Below are positions 813 through 55,699 of a stretch of DNA of 64,000 nt, piece after piece. A program made the position numbers and the translations under genes. The first letter of the stretch is position 1. Each line of letters opens with the position of its first letter. Source of the DNA: Isurus oxyrinchus (taxonomy: Eukaryota); contig JANJGN010000034.1 of NCBI GenBank assembly GCA_026770705.1, positions 6,138,001-6,202,000 of the forward strand, read 5' to 3'. The notes below the pieces were generated by a model. That model was not told the DNA's origin. It saw only the letters and a program-made list of their open reading frames with translations, and ran no database searches.

Positions 813-827
813 AGAAATTAAAAAAAG
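813..827 (+). CDS. 15-nt microexon, (E)KLKK
   Basis: tttgtttcacAG|agaaattaaaaaaag|GTaagt; good pyrimidine tract, consensus donor. Confidence 0.75.
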
Positions 828-929
828 GTAAGTGGAAATATGCTCGAGCAACTGAACGCGTAAATGGGTGAAAAGAAACATGAGAAAAGATGGATTCGCA
901 GTGATTACACATTCCAATTTAAAGTAACT

Positions 930-1200
930 TTTAAATTGTCATTGTTATATGTTAATCCCTCTATGGCCTCGATCTTCCATATTGCCTTGAGAATCCTCTG
1001 GCCTTACAATTGGCTGCAAGTTTTGTGTTCCCACCACGCTGGCCTCTTTCTGATCGCGCTGTTCCTTCACCTTACCAATGGCGACTTTCGGCTTCTGCAA
1101 TATGTCCCAAAACTCTGAATTATGTTTGCTAAATCTTGCACCTCATACTCTACTTCGTCCTTTAATATTCATATATTTGCTCTGTGGTTTCCAAAGTCCA
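930..1200 (+). mobile_element. L2-type LINE 3' fragment
   Basis: ccctctatggcctcgatcttcc...cttaccaatggcgactttcggcttc...aactctgaatt resembles the recalled fish/shark L2 3' end. Confidence 0.55.
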
Positions 1201-1249
1201 TTCCTCGTCCTCACCCCGGATTCTGGCCAACAATTAAAGTTTTGTTCAA

Positions 1250-2275
1250 AACATGGTGAAATGCAGTGTGGTTCGTAACGCCCTGTGGCACTTCTGTTAT
1301 TGGGACGGCCTGCTAGGAACCTTAGAAATACTCAGTGGACGATGCGCTGGCTTACATGTCCTCAGAACAAACAGGGAAATACATGGCATCTGCAGCAACA
1401 CAATGGCTCTTCTGGCCAACAAAACTGCAATTGAACCAAACCTCCAAACGTTTTAGTTTCCTGCCATTGGACCGAGGTGTCGTTCTCTAAAGACAGGCGT
1501 GGAAGGTGGTGTGAAACGGTGTCTGCATCCTAACATTTTGCCCACACGGGCATCTTTCTTTCTGAGTACATCTACCATGACATCAGGTGTCCAGCGAATG
1601 ATGGAGGGCACATTGTTGTGTTGTATCAAAACGATCACTTGACGTATGCTTGCACTGCATTTGGTCAATTGAGAAAGCGAGCATTTGAAATTCGCAACAC
1701 CAAAACTGACAGGAAACTCATGATCTGTTATTTGGGCCTGATTCCCACCTTACTCTGCAAGGCCGAATCTTCAAGATTTAAAAGGTGCAGGAGGCACCTA
1801 AGGCACTTGGTTCATACAATTAAAAGTGGCTGCAAAATAAATTGCATATAAGTGGGAGGGCAGAGATGCGGACAATGTCAGCTCTCATTTATCAAACTCC
1901 CAAAATAGTTATTGTTCTCCAAGAGGACAGACGCACCAGAGGAGGGCGGAGGACGATCTTAAGGGATGAGCTGAAAAGCAACATGAAGAAAATGAATTAT
2001 TCACATGGGCATCTCGGTGAACACCGTTTATAGATTAAGCCAAACGGCACCAGGCACTATAGGAAGGACCCTAGCACTTTGAAAATGAACAACTAAAATA
2101 TGATTCGGAAAAGCAGGAGGGTTCAAAGAAAAACAGCGTGACTCGAATTATTGATGCACGAACTGGCACCCAACAGGGCATTGGTGCATGAAGTCTGCAG
2201 GTCCAGCATCTGCCTCATCAGCCATCTCATGCTCATGGAAGATAATCGTCCTGGCTAGCGAGGCATAGCCAGTAA
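1250..2275 (+). mobile_element. Degenerate RTE-clade LINE (C-terminal ORF region)
   Basis: Translations AFGQLRKRAFE..KLMICY..IPTLL and RRTRGGRR..RDELKSNMKK, plus a 3' VCRS.I.LISHL-like motif, match RTE ORF C-termini. Confidence 0.7.
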
Positions 2276-2699
2276 TAACATTATCTGACATCAATTAATC
2301 ACATGTCCCAATGTGGCCACATGTTGCATCACCTCCAGGTTTGTGAAACTGTTTGCCTGAAAACAATTTTAGTCTTTTCCTGGAGTAAGTCACTATATCC
2401 AACATAATTGCTTTTTCCTAACAACAGTCTACTTTCAATCTCTACCAGCAAAGTCCCACTGACAGAGCTGAGGAATCAGTTGGTCGCAGGATACTACTTG
2501 CAGGTTCTTAAGTTCAGTTAACCATTTGGGAGAAAACCATGTTTCCCGAAGAGAAATTAAACATTTGTAACATAACCAAAGAATATAGGTTGTCACAGAT
2601 CGGTTACAGCACAGAAAGAGGCCATCGGGATCTTCGCAACAGAAGCGGATCTCTGGGTGATTATCTCGGATTTTCCCATGCTCCAGACCTTCAAGTGCA

Positions 2700-3460
2700 A
2701 TGCATGCAACTTGCTTACTATTGAAAGAATTACCCAGCCTCGTATTAAAAGCCACGTTTGTCCCTTTGCCGAGCTCATTCTTAGACATTGCATTTAAGAA
2801 CATAATCATGTGCTGCTCATTTATTTTTCCCAATGTCCCCTTGGTTCCCTTTCACTGGACGTTAACTCAATGACTTCCGGTTCTAGACCATTCAGGATGG
2901 GAAGAGTCTAAGTCTGCCTAACATGTCGAGGCCCTGTCGTGAATTTGAGAAGCCCCATCAAATCTCCTTTCAATCATTAGTTTATTTGTGCACAACCGCT
3001 CTAAAGTCTCCACTTTTCCTCCTAGAAGAAACAATCATCTCTGGAAATATTCCCATGGATACAGTCTCTACCCTCTCTAACGTCTCCACTAGTCCCTTAA
3101 CTATGATTTCCAAAATTTGATACAATTCCCGAGTTGAAATCGAACTAGTGGTTAAGCAGCTTTACCATAACTTCCATTCTTTGGCTGCCTATTCATGTCT
3201 TTATAAAGCCGAATATTTCAACTGCCAAAGTGATGGCGCTTTCAATCAGCCCTGCATCTTGCAACCATTTGTCCTCTTTTACTTCCAAAGCCACATCAGA
3301 AGCTTCAATCCCATTTGGAATGCTATCACAAGTTGTGCATTACCTCCTCCTACCAAAATGAATTACTTCGTGCATCTCTCTATTAATTTTACCTGCAATA
3401 GTTCCTTCAATTCCACCAGTCCATCTGCGTCCGTTTTATGTATTTAACCATCATCCTTGC
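2700..3460 (-). mobile_element. CR1 LINE 3' fragment
   Basis: Reverse-strand CR1 RT C-terminus and 3' UTR-like sequence. Confidence 0.6.
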
Positions 3461-3618
3461 AATTCATAGCCCTGTAAAACCTGAAAACTGATAATCTGAA
3501 AGTTTTGCCCTGGACACTCATGTTTATGTCCTTGATGCATACCACGTAGATTGGAAGTGGGAAACGGCATCGTTTTTGTTGACAATTCAGTTTAGAAAAT
3601 CCATGTTATGAATTACAG

Positions 3619-3654
3619 AGCTAAGCGAGTGTCAACAAGCTAGAAAAGACCTAG
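3619..3654 (+). CDS. 36-nt microexon, (E)LSECQQARKDL
   Basis: aattacAG|agctaagcgagtgtcaacaagctagaaaagacctag|GTgagc; shares the [ED]LxxC motif with four other 36-nt exons. Confidence 0.8.
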
Positions 3655-4077
3655 GTGAGCAAAACATTCCTGGTGTCGCTTTCGATAACACGCCTTATTA
3701 TTTTGGACCATTAAGCAAATGCATTTTTATTCTTTAAAATGTGAAGTCATCAATTCAGGCACCCATTATTTGGCGATAGGCCCTCATTCGCTTCTGTTGA
3801 TTTCAATAAAATCAAATGCTGGGCAGGAAGCAAAATAGGCCGACCATCCGATAGTGGGCAGGATGAATTTCTGATGCTCCATGCGACATTATTATTGGCA
3901 CTTTTTGTCGAAACACTTGCTCTATCCTGCACACTAACGGAATGATGAATATTGTTAACTTTATCGATTTGGTACCACGTTCACAAAGTGTTGTAAGCAA
4001 TAACGAAACTCCCCCCTCGTGAAAAATATTCTTTAATCTTATAACTTTTGGTTTGTTTATCATGTAATCCCGAACAG

Positions 4078-4104
4078 AAGAAAAACTCAACGCAAAAGAA
4101 AAAG
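4078..4104 (+). CDS. 27-nt microexon, (E)EKLNAKEK
   Basis: gaacAG|aagaaaaactcaacgcaaaagaaaaag|GTaact; close paralogue of 33627-33653. Confidence 0.85.
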
Positions 4105-5042
4105 GTAACTGATCTGACATATTTTTCTTCAAAAAACCAGACATTGACAATGGCTGATAGCTTCCTTACATGAATTGTTTTGCTTTCTCATGAATGTTTT
4201 AAGTTTTTTTTTACGAAGCAGATTGCTAGAATGTAGCCTAAGGGTTAGCAGCAGAGGAATCCTATATAAGGGTTCCATGTTTTCGAGTATGAGGGCACAT
4301 TTTCGGATGCTGTGTCACACAAAGTTGGAAGGCAATAACTAACATGTGAAATAATTAACAGAATAAGCAAATCACTTAATGCTCCTTAAACAATGTCATG
4401 GCAACAACGATGTTCTCGCTAGCACAGAGAATTTGGAAATAAAACATTTGCAGTGGTTAAGAATGACATGTTTGCTGATAGAGTTTATGAAGGAGTTCTT
4501 CTGACGCCGTTGCGGTGTCACAACTTTCGGCCAGAAGTTCCGCCTTCAAGTCTCACTTCAGGACTTGCTCGCTGTTGAAGCTGTTTTCATAAGGTGGCTG
4601 ACTGCATTGGTTACCATCTTCTAAAGTGTTCCAATGTGCCTGGCAGCAGGTGCTAAGAATGGGAGAGATACTTGCCAGCCAGACATCCGGAAGCAACGTC
4701 ATTTGACTGTCGTGCTTTGCCAAGCATAATCGTGGCCACATCCAGTCGAAATCCATGATCACGAACACCCTCTGAATGCAAGTTACCTGAAAACTAGGAA
4801 ATAAATAACAGATGTAGTAAGTTGTTCTGGCGGAGGATAGGCTTAGGCATGGGACACTTGATTGGACGGACAGATATATTCCTCTAATTTGTGTGGGTTG
4901 GCGTACCCTCTCGAATTCCATAGACTTAAATATATTTTGTAAATGCAACTCACTGGCCATGAAAAAATACAGAGCGCCCTCTATAGTTGATCGGTGACGT
5001 GACTAACCATGGAGAAACACAGTGTATCTACTTAAATAAGGG

Positions 5043-5077
5043 AATTGAACAATTGTTAACGCGAAGAACTTGGCAAT
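5043..5077 (+). pseudogene. Possible decayed 36-nt-class exon, ELNNC*REELG
   Basis: ELxxC motif at the position where the module predicts a 36-nt exon, but GG instead of AG, an in-frame TAA and only 35 nt before GT. Confidence 0.25.
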
Positions 5078-5989
5078 GTCCAGCAGAAAAAAAAATCTGC
5101 AAAAGCTTTTGATTGCACTTTTGTGCAAGTTAATCTGAAAACAAAAGCCCAGTGCATGTTACTAATTGAATCTTACCACGCCGTTATATGATGGAATTAT
5201 ACGATGTCTTATTTTTTAAGCATGTATAATATTCAAGTAAAATATCCTAAAGCATGCCATGCAGCTATTGGACACCAGCTCGGGGAGATTCAATGTGATG
5301 TCTCTATATGTTATTGCACAATCTGTACTCAAGTAAGGTTCCCGATGCCAGCCTTGTGCTTATTGCTACTGCAATCCCAGCACTCTGCTCTTCGTTAAAA
5401 TGCAGTTTGAAATGGTGGCCCAAATTAGACCTCGCATTTTATGAATATGATGCAAGGATCAGCTGAGGGAAATATTCTGCCATTCCTTTTGTGTAGGTTA
5501 AGAAGGCACTTCAGGAGGATGTGAGCGGGTGTACATATGGGTAATATGAGATGCAATATGTTGAATTATGGAGCGCAAGGAAGGGCATGATCTACTTTGT
5601 CAAATACAAAAACTGTACTATAAAATCTGTATTGTAAGTCAGGAGGGTGGATGGGAGGTAGAGGGCGAAACGTGGTGCAATTTAAGCGATGGTGAAACTC
5701 TCACATCTCACCCTTTCAGAGATTCTAACGTGCCAAGTGTCTTTAAAGGATTCAGGTGGGAAATATATTTGGTATTTGTGTAAAATAGCCACTGCACAAA
5801 ATATTCCTACAATTCCTAGCCCACACGTAGAATACAGAAATGCCGATCAGCAATTTTAAATATACACATGTAGATTTTGCCTGCATCATATATTTGCCCT
5901 GCCAAAAAAGAAGGCAAACCTCCACCATGCCTTTAACTGCTATATGAAAGTGTTTTATCCCTCTCCATCTCTCTATCATTATCTCTCTC

Positions 5990-6400
5990 TCTCTCTCTCA
6001 TTATCTGCATTCCAGAAATCATTTCATAACCTTCCAAATGCTTGTTCTGCACATTAACGTGTGGCTCCCCACGAAACCCCTCCTCCCCACCCTATGATTT
6101 GTCTATGAATAACCTTAAATCAGTGTTTCTTTGTTGCTGGTCGTCCTGGACGCGGAATCCATTTTTCTTACTTAATCTCTTAAGAATGATGGTCTTATCA
6201 TAGTTGGCTTCATTATCATAGGGTCCATTAACTTTCTTGTCATGATCAGAAAAATCTCAGCTTCACCCTGCTTTCTATTTACCTGACGCCCCTGGTACTG
6301 TCAATTAAATCTTCCCTGTGCTCCCAACATGATTTGCGAATCATTGTAAAACGCAGTGCATCAAATTTGAATACAATATCCTAAAGTGGTGCATATTAAA
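5990..6400 (-). mobile_element. CR1 3' fragment beside a (CT)n run
   Basis: Reverse CR1 3' UTR-like sequence; (ct)n at about 5983-5999. Confidence 0.5.
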
Positions 6401-6774
6401 CCACAATCGTTGATAAGCTGCACTGAGAGATGACGTATTGGTTAGATACACATGTTCAGCAGTGAGTTCTCCGTCAATTATTGATCCCGACTAATGTGTG
6501 GTTCTGTTATCTGAGCTGGTCGTCTGGCTGGGCATGGAACGGACAGCCGTTGTGAGAGTGTCAGTTTTACACTACAGTCCAGGATCATTATTTGCCTCAA
6601 TATGTAGCATTAACTACATTATTGTGTGGTGTGCACAGTTCTACACGCAGCAGCATGCCTTGATATAGCAACAATTCAAAATTTCAATCCACTTGCAAAC
6701 TATTGCCTTATCCTATAAAACGTCTAATGTTTCAATGATTCTACAATCTTCCTGTTAACGTCATGCCTTGACAG

Positions 6775-6801
6775 AAACAAAGCTGAAAGGCAAAGAAAAA
6801 G
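6775..6801 (+). CDS. 27-nt microexon, (E)TKLKGKEK
   Basis: gccttgacAG|aaacaaagctgaaaggcaaagaaaaag|GTagcc. Confidence 0.8.
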
Positions 6802-8011
6802 GTAGCCAGTTTAAGAATTCACTGTTTTAAAAAGACAGGTATTAACGTCTTTGGAAAATATCCATCGACCGTCTGTTTCATGATTAACTTCTCTCAAATA
6901 GCATTTAGCATTATTAATCGGAAGATCGGTTGAATTTGGTAATGGGCTATATGTGGAGAAAAGCTTTCACCTTGAGGTCAAAGCCAAAATTGGGAGCGAG
7001 TAAGATAGGAGTGTATCATTAATAGAAACAAACACTCTGGAGGAAAGTATTCTTCCAGAAAACAATTAGAATGTGGCATTCGCTCCTGCACGATCGTTTG
7101 GTATACAGAATTTCACTGCATTTTTTTAAGGCCAAGGGCAGTAATCCACCGAGATCCCACGAAAGTTTTAAATGTCTTGTCACGTTTTAAATGTCTTGTC
7201 GTCCCCAAGAAAATTTTAGTTCAGCATTGTCAACGTAAGATTAATGTCTCCGGTGCATTGTCAAGTAAGTTTACCTAATGCTTGGAATCTGGTTTGAATG
7301 CTATTACCTGTCGATGCCTTCCCTTGAGCACATGTTTGGGTTTGGGTCCTGACCTCGGAAGGATACATGTTGATCTGTAAATATCGAGACTGTGTTCCCT
7401 CAGGTGATTTGCAGTCGTTTCAGGGGCCGTGTGTGATGACAATTTCCTGCGCATTCCCTGTCAGCCAAGGAGCTGAATGGAGTGCGAGCTTTAGGGAATG
7501 CTGTATAGCAACCATTGTACACTTCATGCACTAAATAACAAATCACACTGATCATTCTTAGCAGAATATTGAAGCGGAGTATCTCAGATCTGCATATAGA
7601 AGCTATTTTAAAAACATCGACATGCACAAAAGGATTTTGCCTAATTAAACAAAGTGCGACGAATGACACCGAAAACGTTCTAAGTTAACATGGATTTTAA
7701 GTTGTCCAGAAAAGAAAATTCACGGATGAAACCATGCCAGCGTCATTTCTGAAAAGCAGAAGTACGTCACCAATAAATTGCAGTTAGTGGAGGAGAGTCA
7801 AATATTTCCAGTTGCATTCGCCTATTCAAGCTCATTCTCTAACAGCACTGTAGGTTCCAGACATGATTGTTAAGAGGATTACCGGGCCATATTGATTGCT
7901 TTCTGGGAATGTCGGGATATAAAATGGAACTCTTCTGTACTCTTGACGAGGAAATGCAACTGATAACTATGACGATGCCATGATCCTTATAAACTTTTCT
8001 TTCTCTGTTAG

Positions 8012-8038
8012 AATTGAATGACGTTCAGCAGAAGTGCA
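8012..8038 (+). CDS. 27-nt microexon, (E)LNDVQQKC
   Basis: ttttctttctctgttAG|aattgaatgacgttcagcagaagtgca|GTgagt; strong sites; paralogue of 22682-22708. Confidence 0.85.
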
Positions 8039-8294
8039 GTGAGTATTCAGTGAGCCAGCACCCACCAAGGTGTGGATTTCCCGTTTGAATATAAAGCCCA
8101 TACTGCAGAAAGAACTTATTGCTTGATAAAAACGTTTGCCTTGGGTGTCAAAATGTAATCGAATGAAGGCATTAAAGCACATCCCCAAGGCATGGGACAA
8201 GATGTGCGAATATAAATTGTGGTGTTACCTTCTTCCGTAAAGGTGCAACAAACGTTTTGTCCTCGCAGCTTTTAACTGTGAATGAGTAGACAGA

Positions 8295-8660
8295 ACTTCC
8301 AAATTGTGGTCAGAAGGTTGCGTATTCAAGTCCAGAGTCAGAAGTTGAGCGCAGGCGCAGATGCTGACACGACAGTGCAGCTCTCAGGCAGCAATGTATT
8401 GCATGAAGTGCCGTGTAGCCGTTTAGTCCATAAAACGAGGCGAGGTCTTCCCTCGGACTTGGACGGAAATCACCCAATGCCACACTTGAAAGAAATCAAG
8501 GGAAGTTTTCAACCGAAGTCCTGGTGACTACTTACCTCTTAATTAAATCTCACATAACAAGGCTGTTTCTGTGGTCTTGGGGTGCCTTGTGAGTCGGGCG
8601 GAACATGTATCTACGCCGAAGCAGTTCAATCAGAGTGGTCATTATATCACCAGCTTTAGC
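8295..8660 (+). mobile_element. Deu-domain (SacSINE1-like) SINE, degenerate
   Basis: cagaaggttgcgtattcaagtcc...gctgacacgacagtgcag... resembles the recalled shark SINE. Confidence 0.55.
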
Positions 8661-9039
8661 TTGATTGATGGATCGGACAGACAATTGAAAGATGATGTCT
8701 AACGCAGAAAATTGCAATCACATCATTTTGGTGGGAAGTAATAGGCGAGGCACTGCATGAGAAAGCGTCAAAGTCTAAATGGGTGTCAGGGTATTTACCC
8801 CTGGTTGTCAATGCGCACAATTTGCTCAGAGTGACAAGGCAGTTTGAATGGCCGTTAAAAAAACAAAACTGCTCACAAAACTTAATAAGAGCGTTATATA
8901 GCACAAAGACATGTAGGTTTCAATAAACGTATAAAATATTGGGCGGGCCTCAACTAGAGATTTGTTTCCAATTCTGGACAGCGTTTTCCAGGAAACTGTG
9001 TAGGCATTATAGAGCATGCAAAAGTAAGTTTTAAAATTA

Positions 9040-9560
9040 ATTCCAGGGATGTGGAGCTGCCATTACTTGGGTAGATTGGATAGGTGTTCTTAACATTGTT
9101 GATCAGAATGTTAAGCAACTATCCAATTGAGGTGAACATAATCATTAGGATCGAGGAAAGCTTAAATACGGGAGAGTTGCTCTGTTGGCAGGAACAGTCG
9201 AAAATCAGTAGAGACCAAGTTAAGGTAATTGACATCATAAACAGATGTGTCATGAGAGAGACATGTTCTTTTCCAGCGAGTGGTAAGCATGTAGATTAAA
9301 CTGCTAATGGTGTCGTGGAGGAATGTTCTATAGATTTTTTCAACAGGGTATTAAATATTCATAACAAGAAGAGAGTTATTTCGGAGGAGTGATACTTGGA
9401 ACAGCGGAAGAGTGGGATGAGAAAAAAATTAATGGGGAGATCCGACAATGGCTCGGAAGGTCTTTCTATCTATATGTCTGGCTTCGTCTCTCCGTCTCTC
9501 ACCCTCTCTCCCTCGCTGTATGTTATACAGCTGATTAGATAGTAAATGAGACAGATAGAT

Positions 9561-9607
<47 letters not shown>

Positions 9608-10520
9608 TAGACAGACAGACACAATTATTTAACATTTCCTTATTTTACATTGCATGGATGTGCAGCAAACATGTCGATAGCATGCGACTGCAGCAAGACA
9701 TAAATAGTCGAGCAGCATCGCCATCAAGTGGCGGATTGAAAATTGTGCATGTAACTCTGCAGTGTTGCATGTTGGCAAAACCGATAGAGGAGCCTAAATA
9801 CCCTTATTGAAATGATTCATTAGTATGCAACAGAGGAGGAGCAGAAATGATTTTAAAGTTGTCTTGAAATATTATAAATGTAGCTAGCAAGTTATTCGGA
9901 TTATTGGGCTTATTATGTGGAGGCATTCTGCACAAAAGACTCTTTGGCTATGGCAGAGTGAACGTTGCTCCATCCGGCTATCAACATATATTCGGAAGGA
10001 GCAACTGAACATTGAGGGTTTTCGGAAGAGAAATGATAGAATGGTTCCAATGGAGAATTGAATGTAACGACCATGGAGGATTGGTGGACAAACGTTAGTT
10101 TTCCTTCGAGCATAGAAAGCAGAGAGGAGATCTATAAGTTAATGTCAAGTTTAGGTAAAGGAGAAAAAGAGATCCCGTTCTGATATGCTTAAGGTACAGG
10201 GATGAGGAGGACACAGTTTTCCGCATTGTGCAAGGGCGATTAGAAAGTGTTGCTCTGTCGGCTTTGCAAGCAAAACTTAAATGCCATGGACGAATGGAAC
10301 TATATATTAAAAAACATACAATGGAGGAGGAGGAGGACCTTTGTTAATTAGAGCCCATATTCTGTAACTCACCATCTAGCAAGTTGGTGAAATATTACTC
10401 ATTCAGTAATTTGAAAATGTATTTGAACTTGCGCATGGGCTTATTAACTCGACAGGCAGACAGTTATAGTGGGGAAAATCAGGAACGACTGCTTGGATCT
10501 GGAGAATGCTGCATGGGTTC
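9040..10520 (+). mobile_element. CR1 3' fragments (two pieces)
   Basis: CR1 RT C-terminus and 3' UTR-like motifs on both sides of the microsatellite. Confidence 0.5.
9553..9618 (+). repeat. Compound (GATA)n/(GAAA)n/(GACA)n microsatellite
   Basis: Seen directly. Confidence 0.95.
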
Positions 10521-10719
10521 CACCGGCTATGGGGCATCTGTCACTCTGGGCATGTGGCCCCAGACCCACAATGTGGCCGGTACTTGTCATCAGACATGGT
10601 CACTGAGTTGTATCAGAATTGCGGCAGAAAATTGGATAAGGCCGATACTAGACAGACAAATCAGGATTGAAATGGTCACCGTGTAAAATAGTGACAAATG
10701 GAAGCCTGTCCACCGTTTT

Positions 10720-14519: not shown

Positions 14520-14930
14520 TTCCTCCTCCCTGAAAACTTGAGCAGAACGATTTAGTCTGAGACCCCAGTGCACCAGCGGCAGAGGACTGCAGTATTGGAA
14601 TCGAAGCATTTTGATGGACATCTTTCACTGAGTCACTGTCTCTCCTGCGGATTGGTGGGATTTTTTTCTTAATTTGATCCTATGGTTCTGCTGGGGGAAT
14701 AAGGGAAGCTGTCGAAGTTTCCATGTCCAAAAATTAATCCTCCATCAATGTCAAAAAAATGGTGACTCGGCTACATTTTATTATTGCCTGTGGGAGCCTA
14801 TGCTCTGCAAAGTGGTTGCAATTTGTCCTGCATTACAACATTAGTTCAGAAGAATGACATTGGTGACAAAGCATTTTGGAAGCCATAAATTCATGAAAGG
14901 CACTGTCGAAATGCAATTTTGTTTTCCTTT
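14520..14930 (+). mobile_element. Deu-domain (SacSINE1-like) SINE ending at the exon acceptor
   Basis: gcctgtgggagcc...ctgcattacaaca...catgaaaggcactgtcgaaatgcaatttt L2-like SINE tail. Confidence 0.65.
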
Positions 14931-14937
14931 TTTGCAG

Positions 14938-14964
14938 AGGGAGATCTTTGGGACAAAGATTCAG
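14938..14964 (+). CDS. 27-nt microexon, (K/E)GDLWDKDS
   Basis: ttttccttttttgcAG|agggagatctttgggacaaagattcag|GTaaac; paralogue of 55673-55699 (L.DKD). Confidence 0.75.
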
Positions 14965-15059
14965 GTAAACAACATATTTATTCTGCACTGATCTTGTCGT
15001 ACCAGTGTTGGCACAGCCTGTAACACTATCTATTTGAGCTAGGATCTCATGATTTCAAG

Positions 15060-15420: not shown

Positions 15421-15541
15421 TGTGCTGATGAATCTCTTTGAGCTGGATCTGTTCCGGCAGCAGCGAATGCTGTAATGACAATTTTTTTGGGAGAAAACCA
15501 AATGAACGTGATTGATAAAATGATCCTATGCTCATTTTCAG

Positions 15542-15577: not shown

Positions 15578-15670
15578 GTGAGTAAATATTTAAAATTCAC
15601 AAAAAACAGTGACGTAAGAGGAAAAGAATTGGAGTTTTATGTGGAAATTATAGAAATGAACTCACAGCAA

Positions 15671-46700: not shown

Positions 46701-47260
46701 GCTGAGTCCCCAAAATCTTCAAAAAGGACGCAGATCAAGAGTGTGGTTTAACACACTTCTCCTTGCCTTGTTAAGTGAGGTTCCAACATCACAAAAGATG
46801 CAGGGAAATGGATCCAGAGCAAAGCAGCTCCTTGACTCGCATTCCATTCGCATCGTGAATGGAATCACGTTGTCCAGGACCGATTCTCAGTGGCAGGACA
46901 GTGTGCTATCTATACGATTCATGACATGAACTAACCAAGGCTCTTTTGACAGCACCTTCCGCACCTGCGACATCAACCATCTAGAAGAGCAAATGTATCA
47001 GATGCAAAAAAATCCATCACCTGCAAATTCTCCACCAAGCCACAATTCATGCTGACTTTATACTTTACAGCCTTTCCTTCGATGTTGCTTGGTCAAAATT
47101 TTGGAACTCCCATCCTAATAGCACTATAAGTAACTTCAAAACATGGATAGCAACAAGCAAAGGAGGCAGCTCCCCATAAAATTCTAAAGTGCATTTACTG
47201 ATCAGCAAGAAATAATGGCCGATGCACCCAAGTTAACATTCCATGAATGAATAAATAAAT
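40780..47260 (+). mobile_element. CR1/L2-group LINE split into about 40780-42050 and 45680-47260
   Basis: MGGDFNAHCQEWLG endonuclease motif in the left piece; RT motifs (QGISARVP..IFSCSIND, LGVILDHKQNWTSHIN) in the right piece. Confidence 0.7.
42330..45010 (-). mobile_element. CR1 ORF2 remnant, inverted, inside the split LINE
   Basis: KADRFPGADCLNPRVAKE..WVKANVMLFFK and MEMAEEIGRHFVCTF CR1 motifs. Confidence 0.85.
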
Positions 47261-47653
47261 ATAAATACAGTCTCTTTGTCTCACCATTTGATCAATCGAC
47301 CTTGGCAATATTGTGGACGCATTGTCAAGGTTTTGCTCTCATGTTTTCCCGTGGGTTGACTTGGTTTACTCAGATAAAAAAAAACACAATAATTTGCCGC
47401 TATCCTCTTTATTATCTCAAGGTTTAGTAACTATGTCAAAGCCTCTGCAGTCAGCTCTGTGGAAATACCTTTGCGTAAACAAGTAAGTTTGATATCCCTT
47501 CAATTTGGTAAACAATATGACAGAACACGATTGCTTTCCAATCGGATCTCAACTTTTATCATAAGAAAGTGAAATTTTGAATTGCTGAAGATATGAGGTA
47601 GTATATTGCTTTTAAAGCTTAAATGCTGTGAAAATCCCTAACTTGCATTGCAG

Positions 47654-47689
47654 ATCTGAAAGGTTGCCTGGAAGCTCGAAATGATACAG
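47654..47689 (+). CDS. 36-nt microexon, (D)LKGCLEARNDT
   Basis: ccctaacttgcattgcAG|atctgaaaggttgcctggaagctcgaaatgatacag|GTacac; upstream intron resembles that of 33156. Confidence 0.8.
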
Positions 47690-47759
47690 GTACACAAATT
47701 GTGTTGCCCGCATATATATTTTCCTTTGAGGTATAACCCTTCAACCAATCAGAGATCAG

Positions 47760-48932
47760 GCGGCATATAATATGGAATTCAACCAACAGTGTCTGTTTCA
47801 GAAAGCTTTTGCTAAGGTCTGACACAAAAGGTTATCAAACCAGACTACAGAACATGCTATGTGGAGAACATGCTGTCGCATACTCAGGACGAGTTCAGTG
47901 GGAGAAAGCAGAATGGAGGACTAAAAATATCATTTTCAAGTTGTCAGGTTGTGATTAATATGTTTTCATGAGGATCAGTGTTTCAACCACAGTTATTTAC
48001 GAAGTATATTGATCATTTGGACGTTGGGATTACATGTAATGCTTCCTAGTTTTCAGATGATACAAGACGAGGTAGGCTAGTGAGCTGTGCGGAGAATTAT
48101 AGAGGCTACAAGAGGATTTGGAGAGGCTAAGTGGGGAGGAAAAAAAATAGATGATTGAACGCAATGTTTAGAAATGTGTGGCTATCGTGTTTGATTGGGA
48201 AAACGGCACCACAGAGCATTTCTTAAATGGTGGGAGCCTGGGAACAGTTGATCTTAAAAATTACTGATGTGTCTTTGTTCGTGAGTCAGTTAGGGCTAAT
48301 TTGCATGCACAGCAGCAGTTGTACAATCGTTTGTTACAAGAGTATTTGCTTGTCAGAGGAAATGTTTCTTTCTGTAATTGTACTGAGCCTTCATGAGGCC
48401 ACAGCTCGAGAATTCTGTGCAGTTTTCGTCTCCTTACCTAAACTCATATGTACTTTCCATAAAGGGAATGAACAAAGTTTCAGCAGATGAATTTCAGTGA
48501 TAGAGCGATTTTTTCTACAAGGAATGATTTTGACGTTAAATCTATGGAGTTTAGAATTCCGAAATCTAATCTCCTTCAAACGTACAACAATCTTACAAGC
48601 CACGACAGGGTAAACATAGGAAAAATGTTTCTCCTGGCCTCACTGGGGAGTCTTGAACCAAGTGAGGAGGTCGCAGAATAAGAGGTAGAACATTTAGGAA
48701 TGAAAAGTGGAGGAATTTCATCATTCAGAGGGTGGTGAATCTTTTGAATGCTCTGCCCCAGAGAGCGCTGCAGCCCCAGTCGGTCACTATGTTCTAGACT
48801 GAGTTCGATAGATTTATACATATTCAAACATGAAGGGTGAAGTTTGATTGTGGGAAAATGGTGCTGAATTAGATCAGAGCTGATATAATTGAAGGACGGA
48901 GCCTGACTGGCTTGCCCCTGATCCTACATCTT
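47760..48932 (+). mobile_element. CR1 3' portion (RT C-terminus and 3' UTR)
   Basis: ttcagaaagcttttgctaagg, tttcagatgatacaagacgagg, gagggtggtgaatcttttgaatgctctgccccagagagcg. Confidence 0.85.
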
Positions 48933-49559
48933 GGCTAGAAATTTATGGTATCAGGTCGGGTGCTGGTCTGACCCCATCGTACAAGAAATTGTGTGAAATG
49001 ATGTTGTGCTTGTGTCCCAACATCATTGCTCACGCGAATATTATTCAGGCCAATTAAAGAACCAATTAATATTAACCACCTATTTAGGCCATTAAAAAGC
49101 CGATTGCCCACTAATTTGCATGGCCTGTAGGGTTTCGCTGATGTCGCAAGGCAAAATGGGTGGGCAGACTGCTGGCGTTTAACTAATTGCCCACCAAGGA
49201 GGGGATTGAAAGAGCCCGGACCATTGTCATTGTGGGCAGTGAGGAGCTCAGGAGATAATTTGCTGTGGTTTCGTAAATGAAATTGATAGTTTTATCAATG
49301 TGTGGAGCTTCATTCTTTGCATTGCTTGCCTTCAGTTCATGACTCATTGGTGTTTCCAAGGTTTCTGGAGGTTTTATACCATATGGATCTTTCCAGTTCC
49401 CAGACAACCTGCTGTTTCTCTGGTATTGGGGATAGCTCCACTGCTGGGACGTCCAAGAGGAGCAAGGGCGGGGCAGACGTGACAGGAGGACCTGCATCTG
49501 TAGGCAGTGTCCACAGAAGCATTCTGAGGGAGGGGAGGCACAGGCATAGGGAACGAAAG

Positions 49560-50650
49560 GCCAGCAGGCTATTCAAACTGGAGTCGACCGCAGAAGAATC
49601 CAATATCCTGCTGCCAAGGTGCAAAGGCAGTGATTCAGCGGCCTTCACATCACAGAGATTCAGTGCTAAAGGAGGCTCTGCTTCTCAGCCCTTACGTGAC
49701 CTCCCTATATCAAATGATTTCGTCAGAGATCACCTCCAACTGTGTTTGGGCTATTCATTGCAAGTGGCTCCGAAAGCCACAATGTCACACAGCCTCCCGT
49801 TCTTTCCATGATTAAGTGGACGATCTTTGTGGCTCTCCCAATCAACTGTCCCAAGTTCATTGAACCCAGTAACTGATAAATTGTTCAGGCGTACCATGAG
49901 ATTTATTCCTTGTTGGGCGTTTGAGACCAAGCGGGCTGAGCTAGCCAGAGGTGTCACTGCGATTGTTGAGTTCCCCCACATACAGAGTGACATCGACTGC
50001 ACACCTCTGGCCATCAAGGCGCCAGTTCATGAGTCATGCACTACCGTTAACAGGGAGGGTTTCCACTCCACGGATGTCCAGGTAATTTCTGACTACAGGA
50101 CACAGATTCTGCAATTTTTTTGCAAGGTACCCAAGTAGATTCCAAGGGGAATACGTCCACCAACACTCACAAATGCCAAGGCTGTTCAGAGCTGCTGATC
50201 GACTGCATGAATGGAAGCTGGGTGACCAGGCCTATCCATTGAAACGAAATGGCTTATGACATCTCTCTGCATGCATGGAGAGAGGCAGGGTAGAGGTAGA
50301 GTAGGAGTCGTGACTGCACAAGTGCAGTTTTACTGAGGGCCAGAGGTCTGCTGAAGATGAGATTTACATGCCGACAACTTTCAGGGGAAGCAGGAGAATA
50401 TCTCCCAGAGAACGTGTCCCTGATAGTCCTTGTGTGCGGTGCTCTCAACATCCTGGTTTTGGCAAGGGGGAACCACAGGAGGGAGAGGATTTTGAGGCAG
50501 CTGCACCGGCTGCAGATGATGACTCCAGCGGCGGGTAGGCTGAGGGTCCCGGGGAAGAACATGGTGAGGGAGGCCCTCTGGAAACTTCAGGAAGACGGTG
50601 GTTCATGGCTCCTTCAGCTAGGCTGTTTTGGCGTTGCTGGCACCTAATGC
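49560..50650 (+). pseudogene. Harbinger DDE transposase (HARBI1-family) remnant
   Basis: FPHIQSDIDCTPLAIKAP..VNREGFHSTDVQVISD and GLLKMRFTC..SGEAGEYLPENVSLIVLVCGAL; stops and frameshifts. Confidence 0.9.
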
Positions 50651-52469
50651 CAGACGTGCCATTTCCTTATCAAATGGATCAAATCTCCCATTCTAATGAA
50701 CCCAAAGTCCACTCTGTACTCGTACATGAAAGATTTGAACCACTCGCATCCAGTTTGAGTCACTGCCGTGCATTACACATACAAAAGAATCATGCTCAGG
50801 TCATTGAAACAAAATCAAATTTGATAAAATGTTGGCAGTCAAATAAAATTAACATCGTTATATAAGGTGTTAATTATTACACCATTAAACAAAGTAACAA
50901 AACATGGCAGAAGAGAAGATTGTCCGTAGGAAGTCACACTTGAGCCTTACCTTTGTGAGTGTTGCATCTTGGTGACCCCAAAAATCCACCACACACCCCC
51001 ACCCCTGGCCCAAACCGGCCACCCCCACCCACGCCAGATCACTGGCAGCCACTTTGAAGGCCAGCCTGCGGACGTTGCAGCACTGTGCACGACCTGTCTG
51101 GGAGGAAGCACTCCTCAGTCATGGCGGCCTTTTCAGATGCCATGATTGCTGGTAGGGAGTCAGAGGAGATGCTTCCATTATTCATAACGCTATAAGCGGA
51201 GACCGTGGAGATGATAAACAGCTCGCCCAACAAAGTGAGGTTAGTCTGGACCTCGCTGTCTGCCATTTAATGGGCGGGAGCCAATGAGGGATATCAGGTC
51301 TGTCACCTAACCATCACAACGGCAGTGACCTACCGAGATCATTGCCTGTTTGAGTGCTTGCAGTCCAGTCAGACACACAAGGAGCCTTTGATTCTGTTCC
51401 TGCAGCCGCCTGTCAAATGAAGTTGTCACTCTCTCAATGGAGAGGACAGTGCATTCTGTGCTGAGTGTCAATGCAGTACTTATGCTCCGACTGTACTCCA
51501 CCATGAAATAAATGATGGGATGCAAACCCCCTGGAATGTCTGTCTGATTTTCCTGTGCATCCCGCTGGACATCCATCATTTGCCGCCTAATGGATGACTA
51601 CAGATCCTCAGACTCAGTAAGCTCCTGGTCTCTAGTAGTCCTCTTCCAGCACCATGGACACTCTCTGCCTCTGCCTGTTCCTCATGCTAGTGTTTTGTAC
51701 CCTCGTCACTGTGTACCAACATTATAGCCGATGATCTAATGAACACTGAGGTGTTGGTATCTGCACTGGTGCCGTGATGCAGAGAGGGGGTGTGATGCAG
51801 GTGCACCTGAAAGAACTTGGTCTTCCCGCATCAAGTGTTGCTCATCAGAGTCTTGCAATCGTTTGCTGGATGGCAATGCTAGTGCAGAAAAACTACAGGG
51901 AACCAGTATTCATCATCACACTGTTAATGTGCAGAAAAGGTGGGCTGGTGAGGCAATGTGGATCTGCTTCATTGTGCGTCTTCTTTCAATGAACAATGGG
52001 GGCTCCAGGTTTGAGATTTCCATTCCAAAAGAATCATCACAACAATGTTTACATGCTGCGAAACTGTCACATTGCACCCAACTTTCATCAGACACCCCTG
52101 CATCTCCATGGCACGTCGAACGAGATGTGCGCCTGCGCTCCGTCCATAAGCCATGCACCTCGTTCCTCATCAATATGTCTAGGGTTCAGGCAGCTCCACC
52201 TGACCTTCACCTCTTGATGTTGTCCTTCTCATGAAAGGAGAGAGGAACATTGAGTAGTCCGCTCTCTGCTTGTAGTGCCATTGTAGCCTGACCAACACCA
52301 CCTGAGGAACAGCTTGCAGGGCACTTCCGGTTCGTGGCCCTCAACCCTCAATGTAATCAGACCAAGCAGCCAGAGCTCACCGCCTAGGCGGACGCCGATC
52401 TCATTTACTCAGACTATTATACCCCTAAGCATGGCGGGGGGGATGGCCATACGTTAACACTGCTCCACA

Positions 52470-52745
52470 GAGATTGATGCCAACTCGTTGCTCGCTCTTA
52501 GTGAGCGCAGAATTTTATTGAACATTTTGCATCACTGCTCCAACGTGCACTGCACAGCATCACGTCCGCTGACCTGGGCTGCCACCTCCGCCCATGCTTT
52601 CTTGATAAGCTGCAGTGGCTTCATCTTGCCTTTCCAAGGGATGAGGATGTCCCGCCTGAAACTGACCTCCTCCAGCAGGATTACCAGGCACTCAAGCGAG
52701 AATTCTGGATCACAGTGTCCACAGGAGTTACCTTCCTGCCTCTCG
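52470..52745 (-). pseudogene. Harbinger Myb/SANT-like (trihelix) DNA-binding protein remnant
   Basis: Manual translation PEFSLECLVILLEEVSFRRDILIP..KKAWAEVAAQVS..TLEQ*CKMFNKI. Confidence 0.8.
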
Positions 52746-53257
52746 TGCCCAGAGCTTCAGGTGCCATTGCTGTTAAAAAAACACTTGTCAAACAATTCCA
52801 AAGCTGGAAAGCGTCTCTTGTCTGTCTCTGTCTCTTTTAAATTACCCAACATATCGCCATTAGACATGGCAACCAATTGGTTCCCTCCGGGCTCTTCCTA
52901 CCATTGAACCTCTATATTGGCCACTCAGAGTGAAATCGTGTTGGAAGCTCGGTCCAGGCCTGGAACGGATTTTGCGTTTGCTCCTGGGCCCGGCATAATG
53001 CATTCGCCAAGTGTCAAATTCAGGCCATTATATTCTTATTGTAGTGAAATAATTTATCTTCCAAAAAAATCCCGCAATATACCAGAAACTTCATCAAACC
53101 TGTTTTACATTACCGCATACTTATTGTGATACCAGTATGTTTGCAATCTTCTTGTTTTAACCTGATTGACAGCATAAATTGGCAATAACTGCTCGCCACA
53201 TAACGAGTTATGCGATTAATATCATACATTTATGGTTTACCTTCCACCCTCTAACAG

Positions 53258-53284
53258 AAGTCAAACTCAAAGTAAAGGAAACAG
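53258..53284 (+). CDS. 27-nt microexon, (E)VKLKVKET
   Basis: cttccaccctctaacAG|aagtcaaactcaaagtaaaggaaacag|GTagta. Confidence 0.8.
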
Positions 53285-53831
53285 GTAGTAATTCGTCGTG
53301 TTAAGGCACCAAAAATTGAGCAATTGTTTATCATGTTCTTTTATATCTCCTATTTTGTTTAAGTACGGTTTTTCTTTCAGAATTTCTTATTCAATATATA
53401 TATGGCAAATGTTAGTAGGGAAACGATGATATGAAGTATTTCCCTAGCTAAAGCGTAAATGCAGCACAAGGGGGCATAAATATGCATATAATATATTCAT
53501 CGATGAACACAATAAGAGATAAGACCATACTTCTTTTTATCAAATCGGTCTGTGACTGTGGAAATCGTTAGCAGTTCGAGTGATTGAGTGGAATAGCAAA
53601 GGTTTCTTTTCAGCAGTCACTGGTTCGATAAGGAAGTATGTTAAAGGGCATTATTCTATTAAGCATAAAAAAGTAAACAGAAATGACAATGATGTGGAGC
53701 ATATAGGTTGCATTGAACAGCAGGATATATAAGGTGTAAGGTGCTGTAGGGACTATGTAATAATGATGGACAGCTGTTATAAAATGCTATTGAAAGCTAA
53801 ACGTCAAAGAGTTGCACTTTCTTTGTTCCAG

Positions 53832-53867
53832 AGTTGAAAAAATGCCAAGCAGATTTAAAGGGTGCAG
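53832..53867 (+). CDS. 36-nt microexon, (E)LKKCQADLKGA
   Basis: cactttctttgttccAG|agttgaaaaaatgccaagcagatttaaagggtgcag|GTggag. Confidence 0.8.
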
Positions 53868-55672
53868 GTGGAGAATGTTCTTGGTGTCTCTTTGAAATAG
53901 TTGTTATCAAAGATAAACTAGTTATTCTTTCTGAGACTCAAAATTAACAAGACCTTACCAAAATCACTGCAAAGTTGGGCATCATTAAAGTTTCAATGTG
54001 CAAAGTTAACATTGACACCATGCAATCATCAAGTGGAGTGTGAAGTCATTCGATAAATTTAGCAGTGCTTGTTGCCTCTATGAGTTATGCAATTACGCTA
54101 AAGCCCTATCGATTTAATCACTGTCCTTCAAACTGACCCACAGGGCAACACAATTATCCTAATTTCCCCACATGTTTTGTTTTCTTTTGCCTCTCAGCTT
54201 ATATATCTGCCTCTTGTCACTTACAGTCGTGGCAATGTTTACTCTCTCAAGACACTTCACAAACTTGCAATGATTTTGTTGTATCGTCGTCCACACACTC
54301 TGACGAAGGAGAACAGCCCCAGTTGGCCCGAGTCTCGATTTTTGTTGTACATCCCTCATCGTCGGAAGTGTCCTGTGAAATCACTTCTCCAGTCTCCCTT
54401 TCGAAATCCTTGACATAGTTCTGAAAGATAGGCCACAGAACTTGGATGCAATGCGGCTTCGCAAATTTATTGCCCAGAAAGCTGTATTCAGCGAATGACG
54501 GCTAATTAGAAATTGATTTTGGATGGCAGTACAATACTGGAGCATATATAATTGTCCGTCTGTTATTGGCCCAGGAAGATATTCAATTTGTAAGATTTCT
54601 GGCATCTGAACCAATTAACCATTTCACTCTTAACGCTGAATTATTCGAAGTATCTGTGTCTGTTTTTATATAGTGTTCATCTTTATGAAAAATTGACACA
54701 TAGCAGTCTCACAGCTGTTATGTTGCATCACAACATCTCTAGAGTATTGTTGCGCAATGTTGCAAGCTTCCAGCTAGTCCGTCCATGCAGGTTTATCCAT
54801 TACAGGCTAACCCCCATATATTTCCACCTACTAAGTGCTCAGGGAATCCTTTATTATAATTTCCCGTAACAGCACATTATTTTAAAGAATTATTTACTTG
54901 ATTTGATTTAGCTTGTCCAGTTATGAAATATGCTACATGATTTACTGCTTGGCCGAGTCAGTTCATTATCTCATGATCTCCAATGGCATGTGGCTTTTTA
55001 CTCCAGAATCTTTATCAACTTGGCAAATTTCCCGTGCTGGTGCCTGGCTAAGCAGGGACATCGTGATTCCTTGAAACCCATGGTCTGTTGTCTTGGACTC
55101 GATACACTCCATTGAATCTTCACCCCTTAGCCTGCTCCCTACCAATTCGGCCTAAATATTTTATTTTGTGCCTCACACACTAGCTGGCTGGTTGGCACAT
55201 TAAACATTTCAGCTGAATATTGTTTTTAAGAAGAAGGAAAACCCACACCATTACATTTCACCACGGAGGTAAAAAAGCATAACATACGAGAGCTTTCATA
55301 AAATGAGAGAAAATTATGGGTTAGAATCAGTGAAACAAAGCAGTGCAGTGCAGAGGGAAGAAATGATTCTTAGGGGCTTCTTACACAGCTTTCAATGCCA
55401 CTGGATATCATATGAATCGTAGGATGGATGCACCTTGTGGAATTGTTTACCTCTACCGGGCAAGAATAAAGACCAACACCCTCACCACCACCGTGCACTG
55501 TTGGCTTGGAGCGACGATGACTCATCGGGCAATGTGAAACCTATTTATAACCCTACATGCCTAGTTACCTGACAGCAGCCGAATGACAAGGTAATTTGTT
55601 CGATAATAAATTTACTCAAACAGACACTAAGCAATATAAATGCATAATCTTTGATTATTTTCTATTTAACAG

Positions 55673-55699
55673 AGGAATTTCTTGCTGACAAAGATAAAG
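55673..55699 (+). CDS. 27-nt microexon, (E)EFLADKDK
   Basis: attttctatttaacAG|aggaatttcttgctgacaaagataaag|GTaatc. Confidence 0.8.

What the first reader, a model, noticed from the sequence alone, without database searches (positions are those of the whole stretch)
813..55699. Hidden array of at least 18 paralogous microexons (15/27/36 nt) encoding a coiled coil
Seen: 18 same-strand AG/GT-bounded units in three size classes, all phase 1-1, making up under 1% of 55 kb and invisible to the ORF track. They splice to EKLKK ELSECQQARKDL EEKLNAKEK ETKLKGKEK ELNDVQQKC KGDLWDKDS EIYYLQIKLQKC EENLKVIEE ELYDLQKKC KKSLK DLSKCEETLKVL EEKLKGKEK ELIDCQNGLKEL EKVKK DLKGCLEARNDT EVKLKVKET ELKKCQADLKGA EEFLADKDK. 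Known: butyrophilins and chicken BG genes build coiled-coil tails from tiny (mainly 21-nt) heptad exons. Inference: this is a comparable, possibly undescribed, exon-expanded coiled-coil gene with a different size code in a probable cartilaginous fish.
Basis: partly seen in the sequence, partly recalled or inferred. Interest (0 to 1): 0.92.

Follow-up and report, generated by a model that had tools for sequence, protein, structure and literature searches.

The report
Giant microexon coiled-coil B30.2 gene
This window is a small slice of a shark gene, probably over a million bases long, whose hundreds of tiny exons build a very long rod-shaped protein with a binding domain at its tip; it belongs to a cartilaginous-fish gene family that the papers searched do not describe.

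Summary
Confirmed, and much larger than reported. All 18 units are real and the window holds 21. An untrained rule finds 22 on the + strand in phase 1, against 3 on the minus strand and 1.35 in shuffles. They belong to a run of 220 catalogued 15/27/36-nt exons over about 590 kb (2,121 codons, no stop, no proline), which ends in an intact B30.2 exon 200 kb downstream. Ten ancient 28-kb repeats of 14 exons keep 260/260 splice dinucleotides, with 0 stops, 0 exon gaps and dN/dS 0.55. A 36+27-nt pair makes three heptads, with Cys often in the core. A conserved head exon 1.54 Mb upstream of the B30.2 exon suggests about 330 exons (extrapolated; continuity unproven). The genome has seven such B30.2 exons. 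With chimaera, skate, ray and shark database proteins they form their own branch (100/100), apart from butyrophilins and TRIMs. No Ig, RING or B-box was found, so it is not a butyrophilin or BG member. Best model: a length-tunable, disulfide-stapled coiled-coil rod tipped by B30.2, probably secreted (about 50%). No RNA evidence in this species, and exon 1 was not found.

The parts
1..64000 (+). The whole window lies inside the gene. Outside the window: the terminal B30.2/SPRY exon at C34:6,395,819-6,396,339 (locus L078; phase-1 acceptor, 172 codons and stop) and the head exon at C34:4,859,457-4,859,567 (L104:4457-4567).
   Evidence: head exon
1..25700 (+). Tenth and last copy of a ~28-kb intragenic tandem repeat (14 microexons, 130 codons per copy). 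The array runs C34:5,884,258-6,163,700; copies are 77-83% identical.
813..827 (+). 15-nt microexon (short linker type), phase 1-1
3619..3654 (+). 36-nt microexon (core Leu/Cys type)
4078..4104 (+). 27-nt microexon (linker type)
5720..5755 (+).
6775..6801 (+). 27-nt microexon (linker type)
8012..8038 (+). 27-nt microexon (shortened core type)
14938..14964 (+). 27-nt microexon (linker type)
15542..15577 (+). 36-nt microexon
17426..17452 (+). 27-nt microexon (linker type)
22682..22708 (+). 27-nt microexon (shortened core type)
24232..24258 (+).
24943..24969 (+). 27-nt microexon predicted from the alternation rule and then found. It is the 3' part of a former 36-nt exon (start 24934) whose acceptor reads CAA in 10 of 10 repeat copies; an AG 9 nt inside is kept in 10 of 10.
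28844..28858 (+). 15-nt microexon
33156..33191 (+). 36-nt microexon
33627..33653 (+). 27-nt microexon
35500..35535 (+). 36-nt microexon
39552..39566 (+). 15-nt microexon
47654..47689 (+). 36-nt microexon
53258..53284 (+). 27-nt microexon
53832..53867 (+). 36-nt microexon
55673..55699 (+). 27-nt microexon; the paralogous copy in gene B (C34:7,221,711) is intact

Best explanation
The window is about 4% of one very large protein-coding gene ('gene A', probably C34:4.86-6.40 Mb). The gene grew by repeated tandem duplication of phase-1-1 microexons together with their introns. SHOWN: the exons are under purifying selection; they alternate between a 12-residue core type and a 9-residue linker type, which together make three heptads; the run ends in an intact B30.2 exon; the same layout recurs in paralogues and in database proteins of chimaera, skate, ray and sharks. 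INFERRED: 15-nt and shortened 27-nt variants shift the heptad phase (stammers and stutters). The exons splice into one chain of at least 2,100 (perhaps about 3,000) coil residues plus B30.2. Chains wind into a parallel coiled coil 300 nm or longer, stapled by core cysteines, with the B30.2 heads clustered at one end as the binding tip. Because every exon is a multiple of 3 in phase 1-1, skipping changes rod length and twist without breaking the frame. A hydrophobic N-terminal leader most likely sends it into the secretory pathway as a fibrous extracellular, mucus or gel protein. Step odds: exons functional 0.97; spliced to the B30.2 exon 0.9; one unit from the 4.86-Mb head 0.7; secreted 0.5.
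For: Selection across ten repeat copies, 13 exon classes: exon identity 90.7% vs intron 80.1%; AG/GT kept 260 of 260 vs 24,518 of 31,742 intronic consensus AG/GT; 0 gaps in 3,630 exon cells vs 1.44%; 0 stops in 1,080 codons; dN/dS 0.55. Catalogue of 220 exons: 2,121 codons, 0 stops, 0 Pro, 87 Cys. Core positions 2/5/9/12 of 36-nt exons are hydrophobic in 91/98/86/77% of 44, Cys at position 5 in 23 of 44; position 4 of 27-nt exons in 86% of 43. Types alternate at 173 of 203 junctions vs 103 shuffled; heptad-band power 1.28 vs 0.62+-0.06 for shuffled exon order (204-exon model). B30.2: Pfam SPRY 1.8e-13; best PDB match BTN3A1 6.8e-20. Seven paralogous exons are each 172 codons after a phase-1 acceptor. 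Family microexons lie upstream of and co-oriented with 6 of these 7; of 38 exact pattern hits outside gene A, 37 fall in such territories, control 1. RefSeq models join such a coil to this B30.2 type: chimaera XP_042192744 (1,697 aa), catshark XP_038671249 (945 aa). Isoforms of three species differ by 9-residue cassettes. The head exon and two downstream microexons are conserved (70/87/80%) in the neighbouring paralogue while introns no longer align. The two named database models in gene A's subclade (skate XP_055510696, placed through its cluster mate P0005; chimaera XP_042192744) begin with Met and a hydrophobic leader. The shark head exon starts with a conserved hydrophobic stretch whose frame continues upstream.
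Against: No transcript of gene A was seen. Exon 1 was not found, so the leader is not shown in this genome. Head-exon similarity to the chimaera N-terminus is weak (E 2.6; p 0.035 uncorrected among 16 comparisons). Hydrophobic starts in gene models can be read-in intron; P0005 appears to show such an artefact. Only 156 of about 883 kb between 4.905 and 5.788 Mb were sampled, and 55 kb sampled across 5.12-5.355 Mb gave 3 plus vs 2 minus hits, so a gene boundary there is possible. N-glycosylation sequons are scarce (3 vs 6.8 expected). B30.2 domains are usually cytosolic (own knowledge). The catshark, Narcine and short chimaera models lack a leader. The match of shark exon peptides to the chimaera coil (23.8 vs 19.3-21.0 shuffled) is not specific, since a tarpon coil outside the family also beats its shuffles.
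Confidence: 0.5

Rival explanations
1. Same gene and rod, but cytosolic: a soluble coil-plus-B30.2 scaffold like enterophilin or the chicken BG 'zipper protein', acting on the cytoskeleton or membrane traffic, or as a long-armed, RING-less TRIM-like sensor.
For: Lys/Glu-rich and sequon-poor composition. Several database members have no leader. Both shark head exons contain an in-frame Met. The zipper protein is a soluble BG tail that controls actin-myosin interaction (PMC4046983, passages).
Against: Leaders in the two named database models of gene A's subclade. Synonymous-type conservation at the start of the head exon implies an earlier coding exon. Cys in a fixed core position.
Confidence: 0.2
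2. An Ig-less relative of butyrophilin/BG: the hydrophobic N-terminus is an uncleaved membrane anchor, and the coil and B30.2 hang into the cytosol as a hugely extended butyrophilin tail.
For: Basic residues follow the hydrophobic stretch in the chimaera model and in both shark head exons. The best PDB match is BTN3A1. Three 21-nt heptad exons lie at 5.100-5.104 Mb. Two family genes sit inside the C21 cluster of B30.2 exons that also holds butyrophilin-type IgC exons.
Against: The hydrophobic stretch is short (best 17-residue mean 1.94-1.96). No Ig exon was found. The B30.2 branch is separate from butyrophilins.
Confidence: 0.15
3. Not one 1.5-Mb unit: the 4.86-5.10 Mb block is a separate coil-only gene and gene A starts near 5.37 Mb, or the exons are used only in shorter, heavily skipped combinations.
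For: A sparse stretch at 5.12-5.355 Mb. The longest database model found is 1,697 aa.
Against: Only two head exons were found genome-wide, each upstream of one B30.2 exon in matching order. No other family B30.2 exon was listed between 4.82 and 6.39 Mb (150 of 455 candidates scored). All 140 array exons are kept intact.
Confidence: 0.12
4. Artefact: chance splice-like motifs in a segmental duplication, a dead gene, or a mis-assembly.
For: 140 of 220 exons lie in a tandem repeat, so they are not independent.
Against: Null tests; selection; copies only 77-83% identical, so not collapsed haplotypes; a related species holds the stretch at about 95% identity; related database proteins exist.
Confidence: 0.02

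Closest known systems
Chicken BG proteins and the zipper protein (PMC4046983, passages)
   Same: A long heptad coiled coil built from many tiny exons, with exon number varying between paralogues.
   Different: BG has an IgV domain, a transmembrane helix and 13-36 exons of 21 (24) nt. Here there are 220 or more exons of 36/27/15 nt (1 of 220 is 21 nt), no Ig found, a C-terminal B30.2, and a megabase gene.
Butyrophilins, e.g. BTN3A1 (PMC4046983 and PMC12841164, passages)
   Same: Heptads followed by a terminal B30.2 exon; best solved-structure match; heptad number varies in squamates.
   Different: No IgV/IgC or transmembrane exon found; separate B30.2 branch; two His residues of the BTN3A1 phosphoantigen pocket align with Ser (pocket assignment recalled); about 300 heptads instead of a few.
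Enterophilin-1 (architecture recalled: about 30 heptads plus B30.2; only its SNX1 interaction was seen, PMC13749957 passages)
   Same: A coil plus B30.2 without RING or Ig.
   Different: About ten times shorter, mammalian; orthology not tested.
TRIM/B30.2 proteins (the names RefSeq gives these models: TRIM39-, TRIM58-, TRIM69-, A33-like)
   Same: Coiled coil followed by B30.2.
   Different: No RING or B-box in the genome region searched or in 8 of 8 database members; separate branch.
Unstudied long coil + PRY-SPRY proteins of other chordates (tarpon XP_036374758; ESM Atlas clusters of 1,277-1,802 aa)
   Same: The same outline, with a signal peptide in the tarpon protein.
   Different: The tarpon B30.2 falls outside the family and its coil lacks the Cys-bearing motif (0 vs 11 in chimaera): probably convergent. 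Exon structure not examined.
Titin (363 exons, called the largest exon number; PMC3575840, passage)
   Same: A giant rod whose length is set by skipping in-frame exons.
   Different: Unrelated sequence and fold; here the exons are 15-36 nt and make up 1% of the gene.

Membership tests
Butyrophilin | Extracellular IgV + IgC domains | tested here: not met
   PF22705 search of the genome: 37 matches among 110 candidates scored, none on C34 2.7-7.5 Mb. tblastn with 7 butyrophilins over 988,849 fetched bases, including all 42 kb upstream of the head exon, hit only B30.2. 8 of 8 database members are SPRY-only. Limits: about 730 kb of gene A's middle was not fetched, and the tblastn did not pick up the broken nectin-type V exon, so distant Ig could be missed.
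Butyrophilin | Transmembrane helix before the heptads | tested here: inconclusive
   No convincing TM exon upstream of the head exon; exon 1 not found; the N-terminal hydrophobic stretch of two database members could be a signal peptide or an anchor.
Butyrophilin | Heptad region coded by small exons | tested here: met
   but with a 36/27/15-nt code
Butyrophilin | C-terminal B30.2 domain | tested here: met
   Pfam PRY did not score, SPRY did
Butyrophilin | B30.2 groups with butyrophilin B30.2 domains | tested here: not met
   16 family rows form one side of a branch at 100/100 against 13 BTN and 32 TRIM-type rows; midpoint root, and family rows were picked by similarity
Chicken BG | Single IgV + TM, 21-nt tail exons, no B30.2 (absence of B30.2 partly recalled) | tested here: not met
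   No IgV found; 1 of 220 catalogued exons is 21 nt; B30.2 present
TRIM | RING and B-box | tested here: not met
   tblastn with 7 TRIMs hit only B30.2; no RING/B-box in 8 of 8 database members
TRIM | Coiled coil followed by B30.2 | tested here: met
Enterophilin | Orthology, and cytosolic enterocyte expression | not tested
   No enterophilin sequence was available from a tool; features recalled
Secreted coil-B30.2 protein (proposed class) | Cleavable signal peptide | not testable with these tools
   No signal-peptide predictor or proteomics; leader-like starts seen in database models only

The most novel reading that the evidence does not exclude
Gene A is one transcription unit of about 1.5 Mb with roughly 330 microexons. 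Gene B (6.5-7.5 Mb) has no head exon of its own yet is intact (17 of 17 projected exons; B30.2 dN/dS 0.45), so it may be an alternative 3' extension of the same transcript. That would be a 2.6-Mb unit with over 500 exons, more than titin, making a secreted, disulfide-stapled coiled-coil fibre up to about 0.7 micrometre long whose length and twist are set exon by exon: an unrecognised structural or defence material of cartilaginous fishes.
Probability: 0.15. Interest if true: 0.93.

Novelty: new variant of a known kind. Interest (0 to 1): 0.77.

Why it matters
The outline (small heptad exons, then B30.2) is known from butyrophilins and BG, but not at this scale or with this code. This is an apparently undescribed family of at least seven B30.2 genes in one shark, with members in chimaera, skate and ray, so it is older than the chimaera-shark split (about 400 million years, recalled). 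RefSeq names its models TRIM-like or 'nuclear-pore anchor-like', probably as fragments, since annotation easily misses 15-36-nt exons. Gene A may rival titin in exon number. It is a direct case for studying how a spliceosome picks hundreds of microexons that are 1% of a megabase pre-mRNA, and how coiled-coil geometry evolves by exon duplication: the 14th exon appears to show a stutter being born from an acceptor shift. If secreted, it points to an unknown fibrous protein of sharks.

Tried and rejected
RNA: no RNA holder listed for the terminal exon. Two same-species runs guessed to be RNA hit only repeats and showed no listed joints on window 14500-34499. Neither is evidence either way. The Ig V exon at C34:6,424,335 was considered as the gene's start and rejected: it is nectin-like, broken there, intact at 7,513,580, and lies 3' of both B30.2 exons. 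Exon 1: signal-like ATG..GT candidates ending in G were no more frequent than on the minus strand (2 and 4 vs 1 and 4), and none was shared with the paralogue. Word-seeded homologue searches with the B30.2 exon alone and with the head exons found nothing; both are weak negatives. A profile search with single exon peptides was not possible because they are too short. Genome DNA searches were swamped by repeats. Weak window candidates 40169-40195, 48057-48071 and 61361-61381 did not enter the catalogue. The expected core-type exon between window 55,699 and C34:6,204,348 was not found. No structure or complex prediction was run, because no natural long stretch of gene A's coil exists as one reference and a dimer pass would not separate the rivals. 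The enterophilin paper (PMID 12657642) is not held. The one supplement of PMC12841164 held as text (1,332 characters) had none of four family accessions; its figures and other supplements were not visible and might list family members as butyrophilins. No earlier scan findings.


Full report
1. The observation. Three more were found: 5720-5755, 24232-24258 and 24943-24969. An untrained rule counts 22 units of 15/27/36 nt on + in phase 1, against 5 and 9 in the other phases, 3 on the minus strand, and a mean of 1.35 (maximum 5) in 40 dinucleotide shuffles. The longest stop-to-stop frame in the window is 179 codons, so the ORF track misses the gene.

2. The array is far larger than the window. 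The window is G000:C34:6,138,001-6,202,000. A 3-kb probe matched ten more places on C34 at 80-82%. Self-comparison of 564 kb showed ten tandem units of about 28 kb at 5,884,258-6,163,700, all 77-83% alike; the window holds most of the last one. A profile scan gave 188 hits on + against 1 on the minus strand at score 20 (trained on window exons). The final catalogue for 5.79-6.38 Mb has 220 exons: 115 of 27 nt, 80 of 36, 24 of 15 and 1 of 21. Of these, 140 lie in the array (14 per unit, 130 codons each) and 80 outside; together 2,121 codons with no stop, no proline and 87 cysteines. Exons are 1.0% of the span and the median intron is 1.6 kb (on a 204-exon version).

3. The exons are under selection. 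Across the ten units and 13 exon classes: exon identity is 90.7% against 80.1% in introns; splice dinucleotides are kept in 260 of 260 cases against 77.2% (24,518 of 31,742) for intronic consensus AG/GT; there are 0 gaps in 3,630 exon cells against 1.44%; 0 stops in 1,080 codons; dN/dS is 0.55. The copies are related, so these are not independent draws, but they are old enough for neutral decay to show. DNA contigs of a related species cover all 30 bins of window 14500-34499, the unique part at about 95% identity, with more contigs on the repeat part. That is a hint that the array is shared.

4. The code. In 44 exons of 36 nt (outside the array plus one unit), residues 2, 5, 9 and 12 are hydrophobic in 91, 98, 86 and 77%, with Cys at position 5 in 23. 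In 43 exons of 27 nt, residue 4 is hydrophobic in 86% and residue 7 is Lys in 33. A 36+27 pair therefore gives 21 residues, three heptads with a/d spacing 3-4-3-4-3-4. The two types alternate at 173 of 203 junctions (shuffled mean 103, maximum 123), and heptad-band power is 1.28 against 0.62+-0.06 when exon order is shuffled. By inference, 15-nt exons are linkers shortened by four residues (stammers) and the second 27-nt type is a core exon shortened by three (stutter). The alternation rule predicted a missing exon in each unit, and it was found. Its old acceptor reads CAA in 10 of 10 copies and an AG nine bases inside is kept in 10 of 10, which shows how the short core type can arise. Use of the AA acceptor (133 codons, exactly 19 heptads per unit) is not excluded.

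5. The 3' end. After the last microexons (6,380,935) a phase-1 acceptor at 6,395,819 opens 172 codons of B30.2: Pfam SPRY 1.8e-13, best PDB match BTN3A1 6.8e-20. Close paralogues lie at C34 7.496 (92%), 4.817 (58%), 2.709 (45%) and 3.474 Mb (44%), and at C21 89.72 and 91.35 Mb. All seven are intact 172-codon phase-1 exons. Pattern searches place the same microexons upstream of, and on the strand of, six of the seven; none was listed for C21 89.72 (158 hits vs 44 control, 100 listed; 74 vs 1, with 37 of the 38 hits outside gene A in those territories). The Ig V exon downstream at 6.424 Mb is a broken nectin-like neighbour, intact at 7.514 Mb.

6. The 5' end. Family-type exons continue in samples back to 4.868 Mb. 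In 156 kb sampled between 4.92 and 5.755 Mb there were 26 plus against 8 minus hits, but only 3 against 2 in the 55 kb sampled at 5.12-5.355 Mb. A 111-nt phase-1-1 head exon at 4,859,457 has exactly one other match in the genome search, at 4,005,537, upstream of the 4.817-Mb paralogue. That exon and two following microexons are the only clear collinear non-repeat matches between the two regions (70, 87 and 80%). The head exon's hydrophobic start is conserved mostly by synonymous or conservative changes, while its Met is not, so a coding exon 1 should lie upstream. It was not found. If head and tail belong together, gene A spans 1.54 Mb. Extrapolating the net sample density gives about 100 more exons, about 330 in all; this is an estimate, not a count. 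Gene B (to 7.497 Mb) is a duplicate offset by 1.0-1.1 Mb with no head exon found, yet 17 of 17 projected exons are intact and its B30.2 has dN/dS 0.45 against gene A on 27 differences.

7. Relatives. The nearest single-domain hits among 1.84 billion representatives are from skate, catshark, chimaera, electric ray, basking shark and epaulette shark, plus unnamed Logan proteins. They are named TRIM-, A33- or BTN-like, but carry only SPRY in Pfam (8 of 8 scanned). Two long models join a coil of this look to this B30.2 type: catshark XP_038671249 (945 aa) and chimaera XP_042192744 (1,697 aa). Isoforms in chimaera, electric ray and catshark differ by 9-residue cassettes, and once by 6; RefSeq isoforms usually rest on RNA reads (own knowledge). 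In a 61-row tree the 16 family rows form one side of a branch at 100/100 against 13 butyrophilins and 32 TRIM-type rows (midpoint root; family rows chosen by similarity). A 52-row quick tree, with 12 rows dropped and 3 added, puts the chimaera protein in gene A's subclade (SH-aLRT 92) and the tarpon signal-peptide-coil-PRYSPRY protein outside. One C21 paralogue is nearly identical to a basking-shark protein, so the genome is a shark's. ESM Atlas lists other chordate clusters of long coil + PRY-SPRY proteins, so the outline is not unique to sharks.

8. Mechanism. Shown: selection, heptad code, terminal B30.2, family. Inferred: one spliced chain forming a parallel coiled coil; at 0.15 nm per residue (recalled) 2,121 residues give about 315 nm; core cysteines cross-link the chains; B30.2 heads cluster at the tip and bind a partner; exon skipping tunes length and supercoil in frame. 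Location is the weak step. For secretion: leaders in the skate and chimaera models of this subclade and the conserved hydrophobic start of the head exon. Against: exon 1 is missing, head-to-chimaera similarity is weak, sequons are scarce, other models lack leaders, and leaders can be read-in intron. I put secreted at 0.5, cytosolic at 0.2 and membrane-anchored at 0.15.

9. Against what is known. BG tails have 13-36 exons of 21 (24) nt behind an Ig V-like region; butyrophilins have Ig domains, a membrane helix, a few heptads and B30.2 (PMC4046983, passages). Butyrophilins occur in cartilaginous fishes, and squamate ones vary in heptad number (PMC12841164, passages). This gene works like an extreme version of that tail but fails the Ig and tree tests, and it fails the RING/B-box test for TRIM. 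Titin's 363 exons are called the largest number (PMC3575840, passage). Nine searches of the open-access library, one of them on six accessions, listed no paper on this family (listings only). Subscription journals and most supplements are outside that library.

10. Verdict. Real; a new variant of a known kind; interest 0.77. The boldest reading still allowed, one 2.6-Mb transcript with over 500 exons making a secreted fibre, has probability about 0.15.

Noticed in passing
L080:9335-9684 (C34:6,424,335) and L085:1835-2186 (C34:7,513,578): Nectin-1/2-like Ig V exon duplicated with gene A/B: broken by a stop and frameshifts in the first copy, intact in the second; more nectin-like V exons at C34 13.07-13.73 Mb.
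   Followed up: partly
C34:7.01-7.15 Mb (L063, L064, L003): Gene B's repeat array has a different, irregular spacing (about 6-25 kb between like exons) from gene A's 28-kb period, which suggests independent re-expansion after the duplication.
   Followed up: no
C34:6,262,000-6,333,000: A second intragenic duplication of about 40 kb at 81-82% identity, the same level as the ten-unit array and the A/B duplication, as if all arose in one burst.
   Followed up: no
L096 (C34:5,100,409, 5,102,744, 5,103,663) and C34:5,836,059: 21-nt single-heptad exons, the size class of BG tails, inside this gene.
   Followed up: no
C21:82.9-118.2 Mb: Large cluster holding most of the 150 B30.2 matches listed and 18 of 37 butyrophilin-type IgC matches (95.6-113.9 Mb); two family genes (89.72, 91.35 Mb) sit inside the B30.2 cluster. 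Possibly the MHC-linked chromosome (not tested).
   Followed up: no
window 31463-31528: Perfect 33-bp tandem duplication; contigs of the related species skip 33 bases here, so it has one copy.
   Followed up: no
window 15672-15740, 27051-27085, 29883-29922, 33845-33900: Short interspersed repeats with many copies genome-wide; 29087-29131 is a poly-C run.
   Followed up: no
P0133 (XP_036374758, tarpon): Signal peptide, long coil and PRY-SPRY in a teleost, outside this family: a possibly convergent secreted coil-B30.2 protein named TRIM39 without a RING.
   Followed up: partly
C34:3.77-4.005 Mb: The 3.474(-) and 4.817(+) family genes point away from each other, so their promoters may lie close together in this interval.
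   Followed up: no
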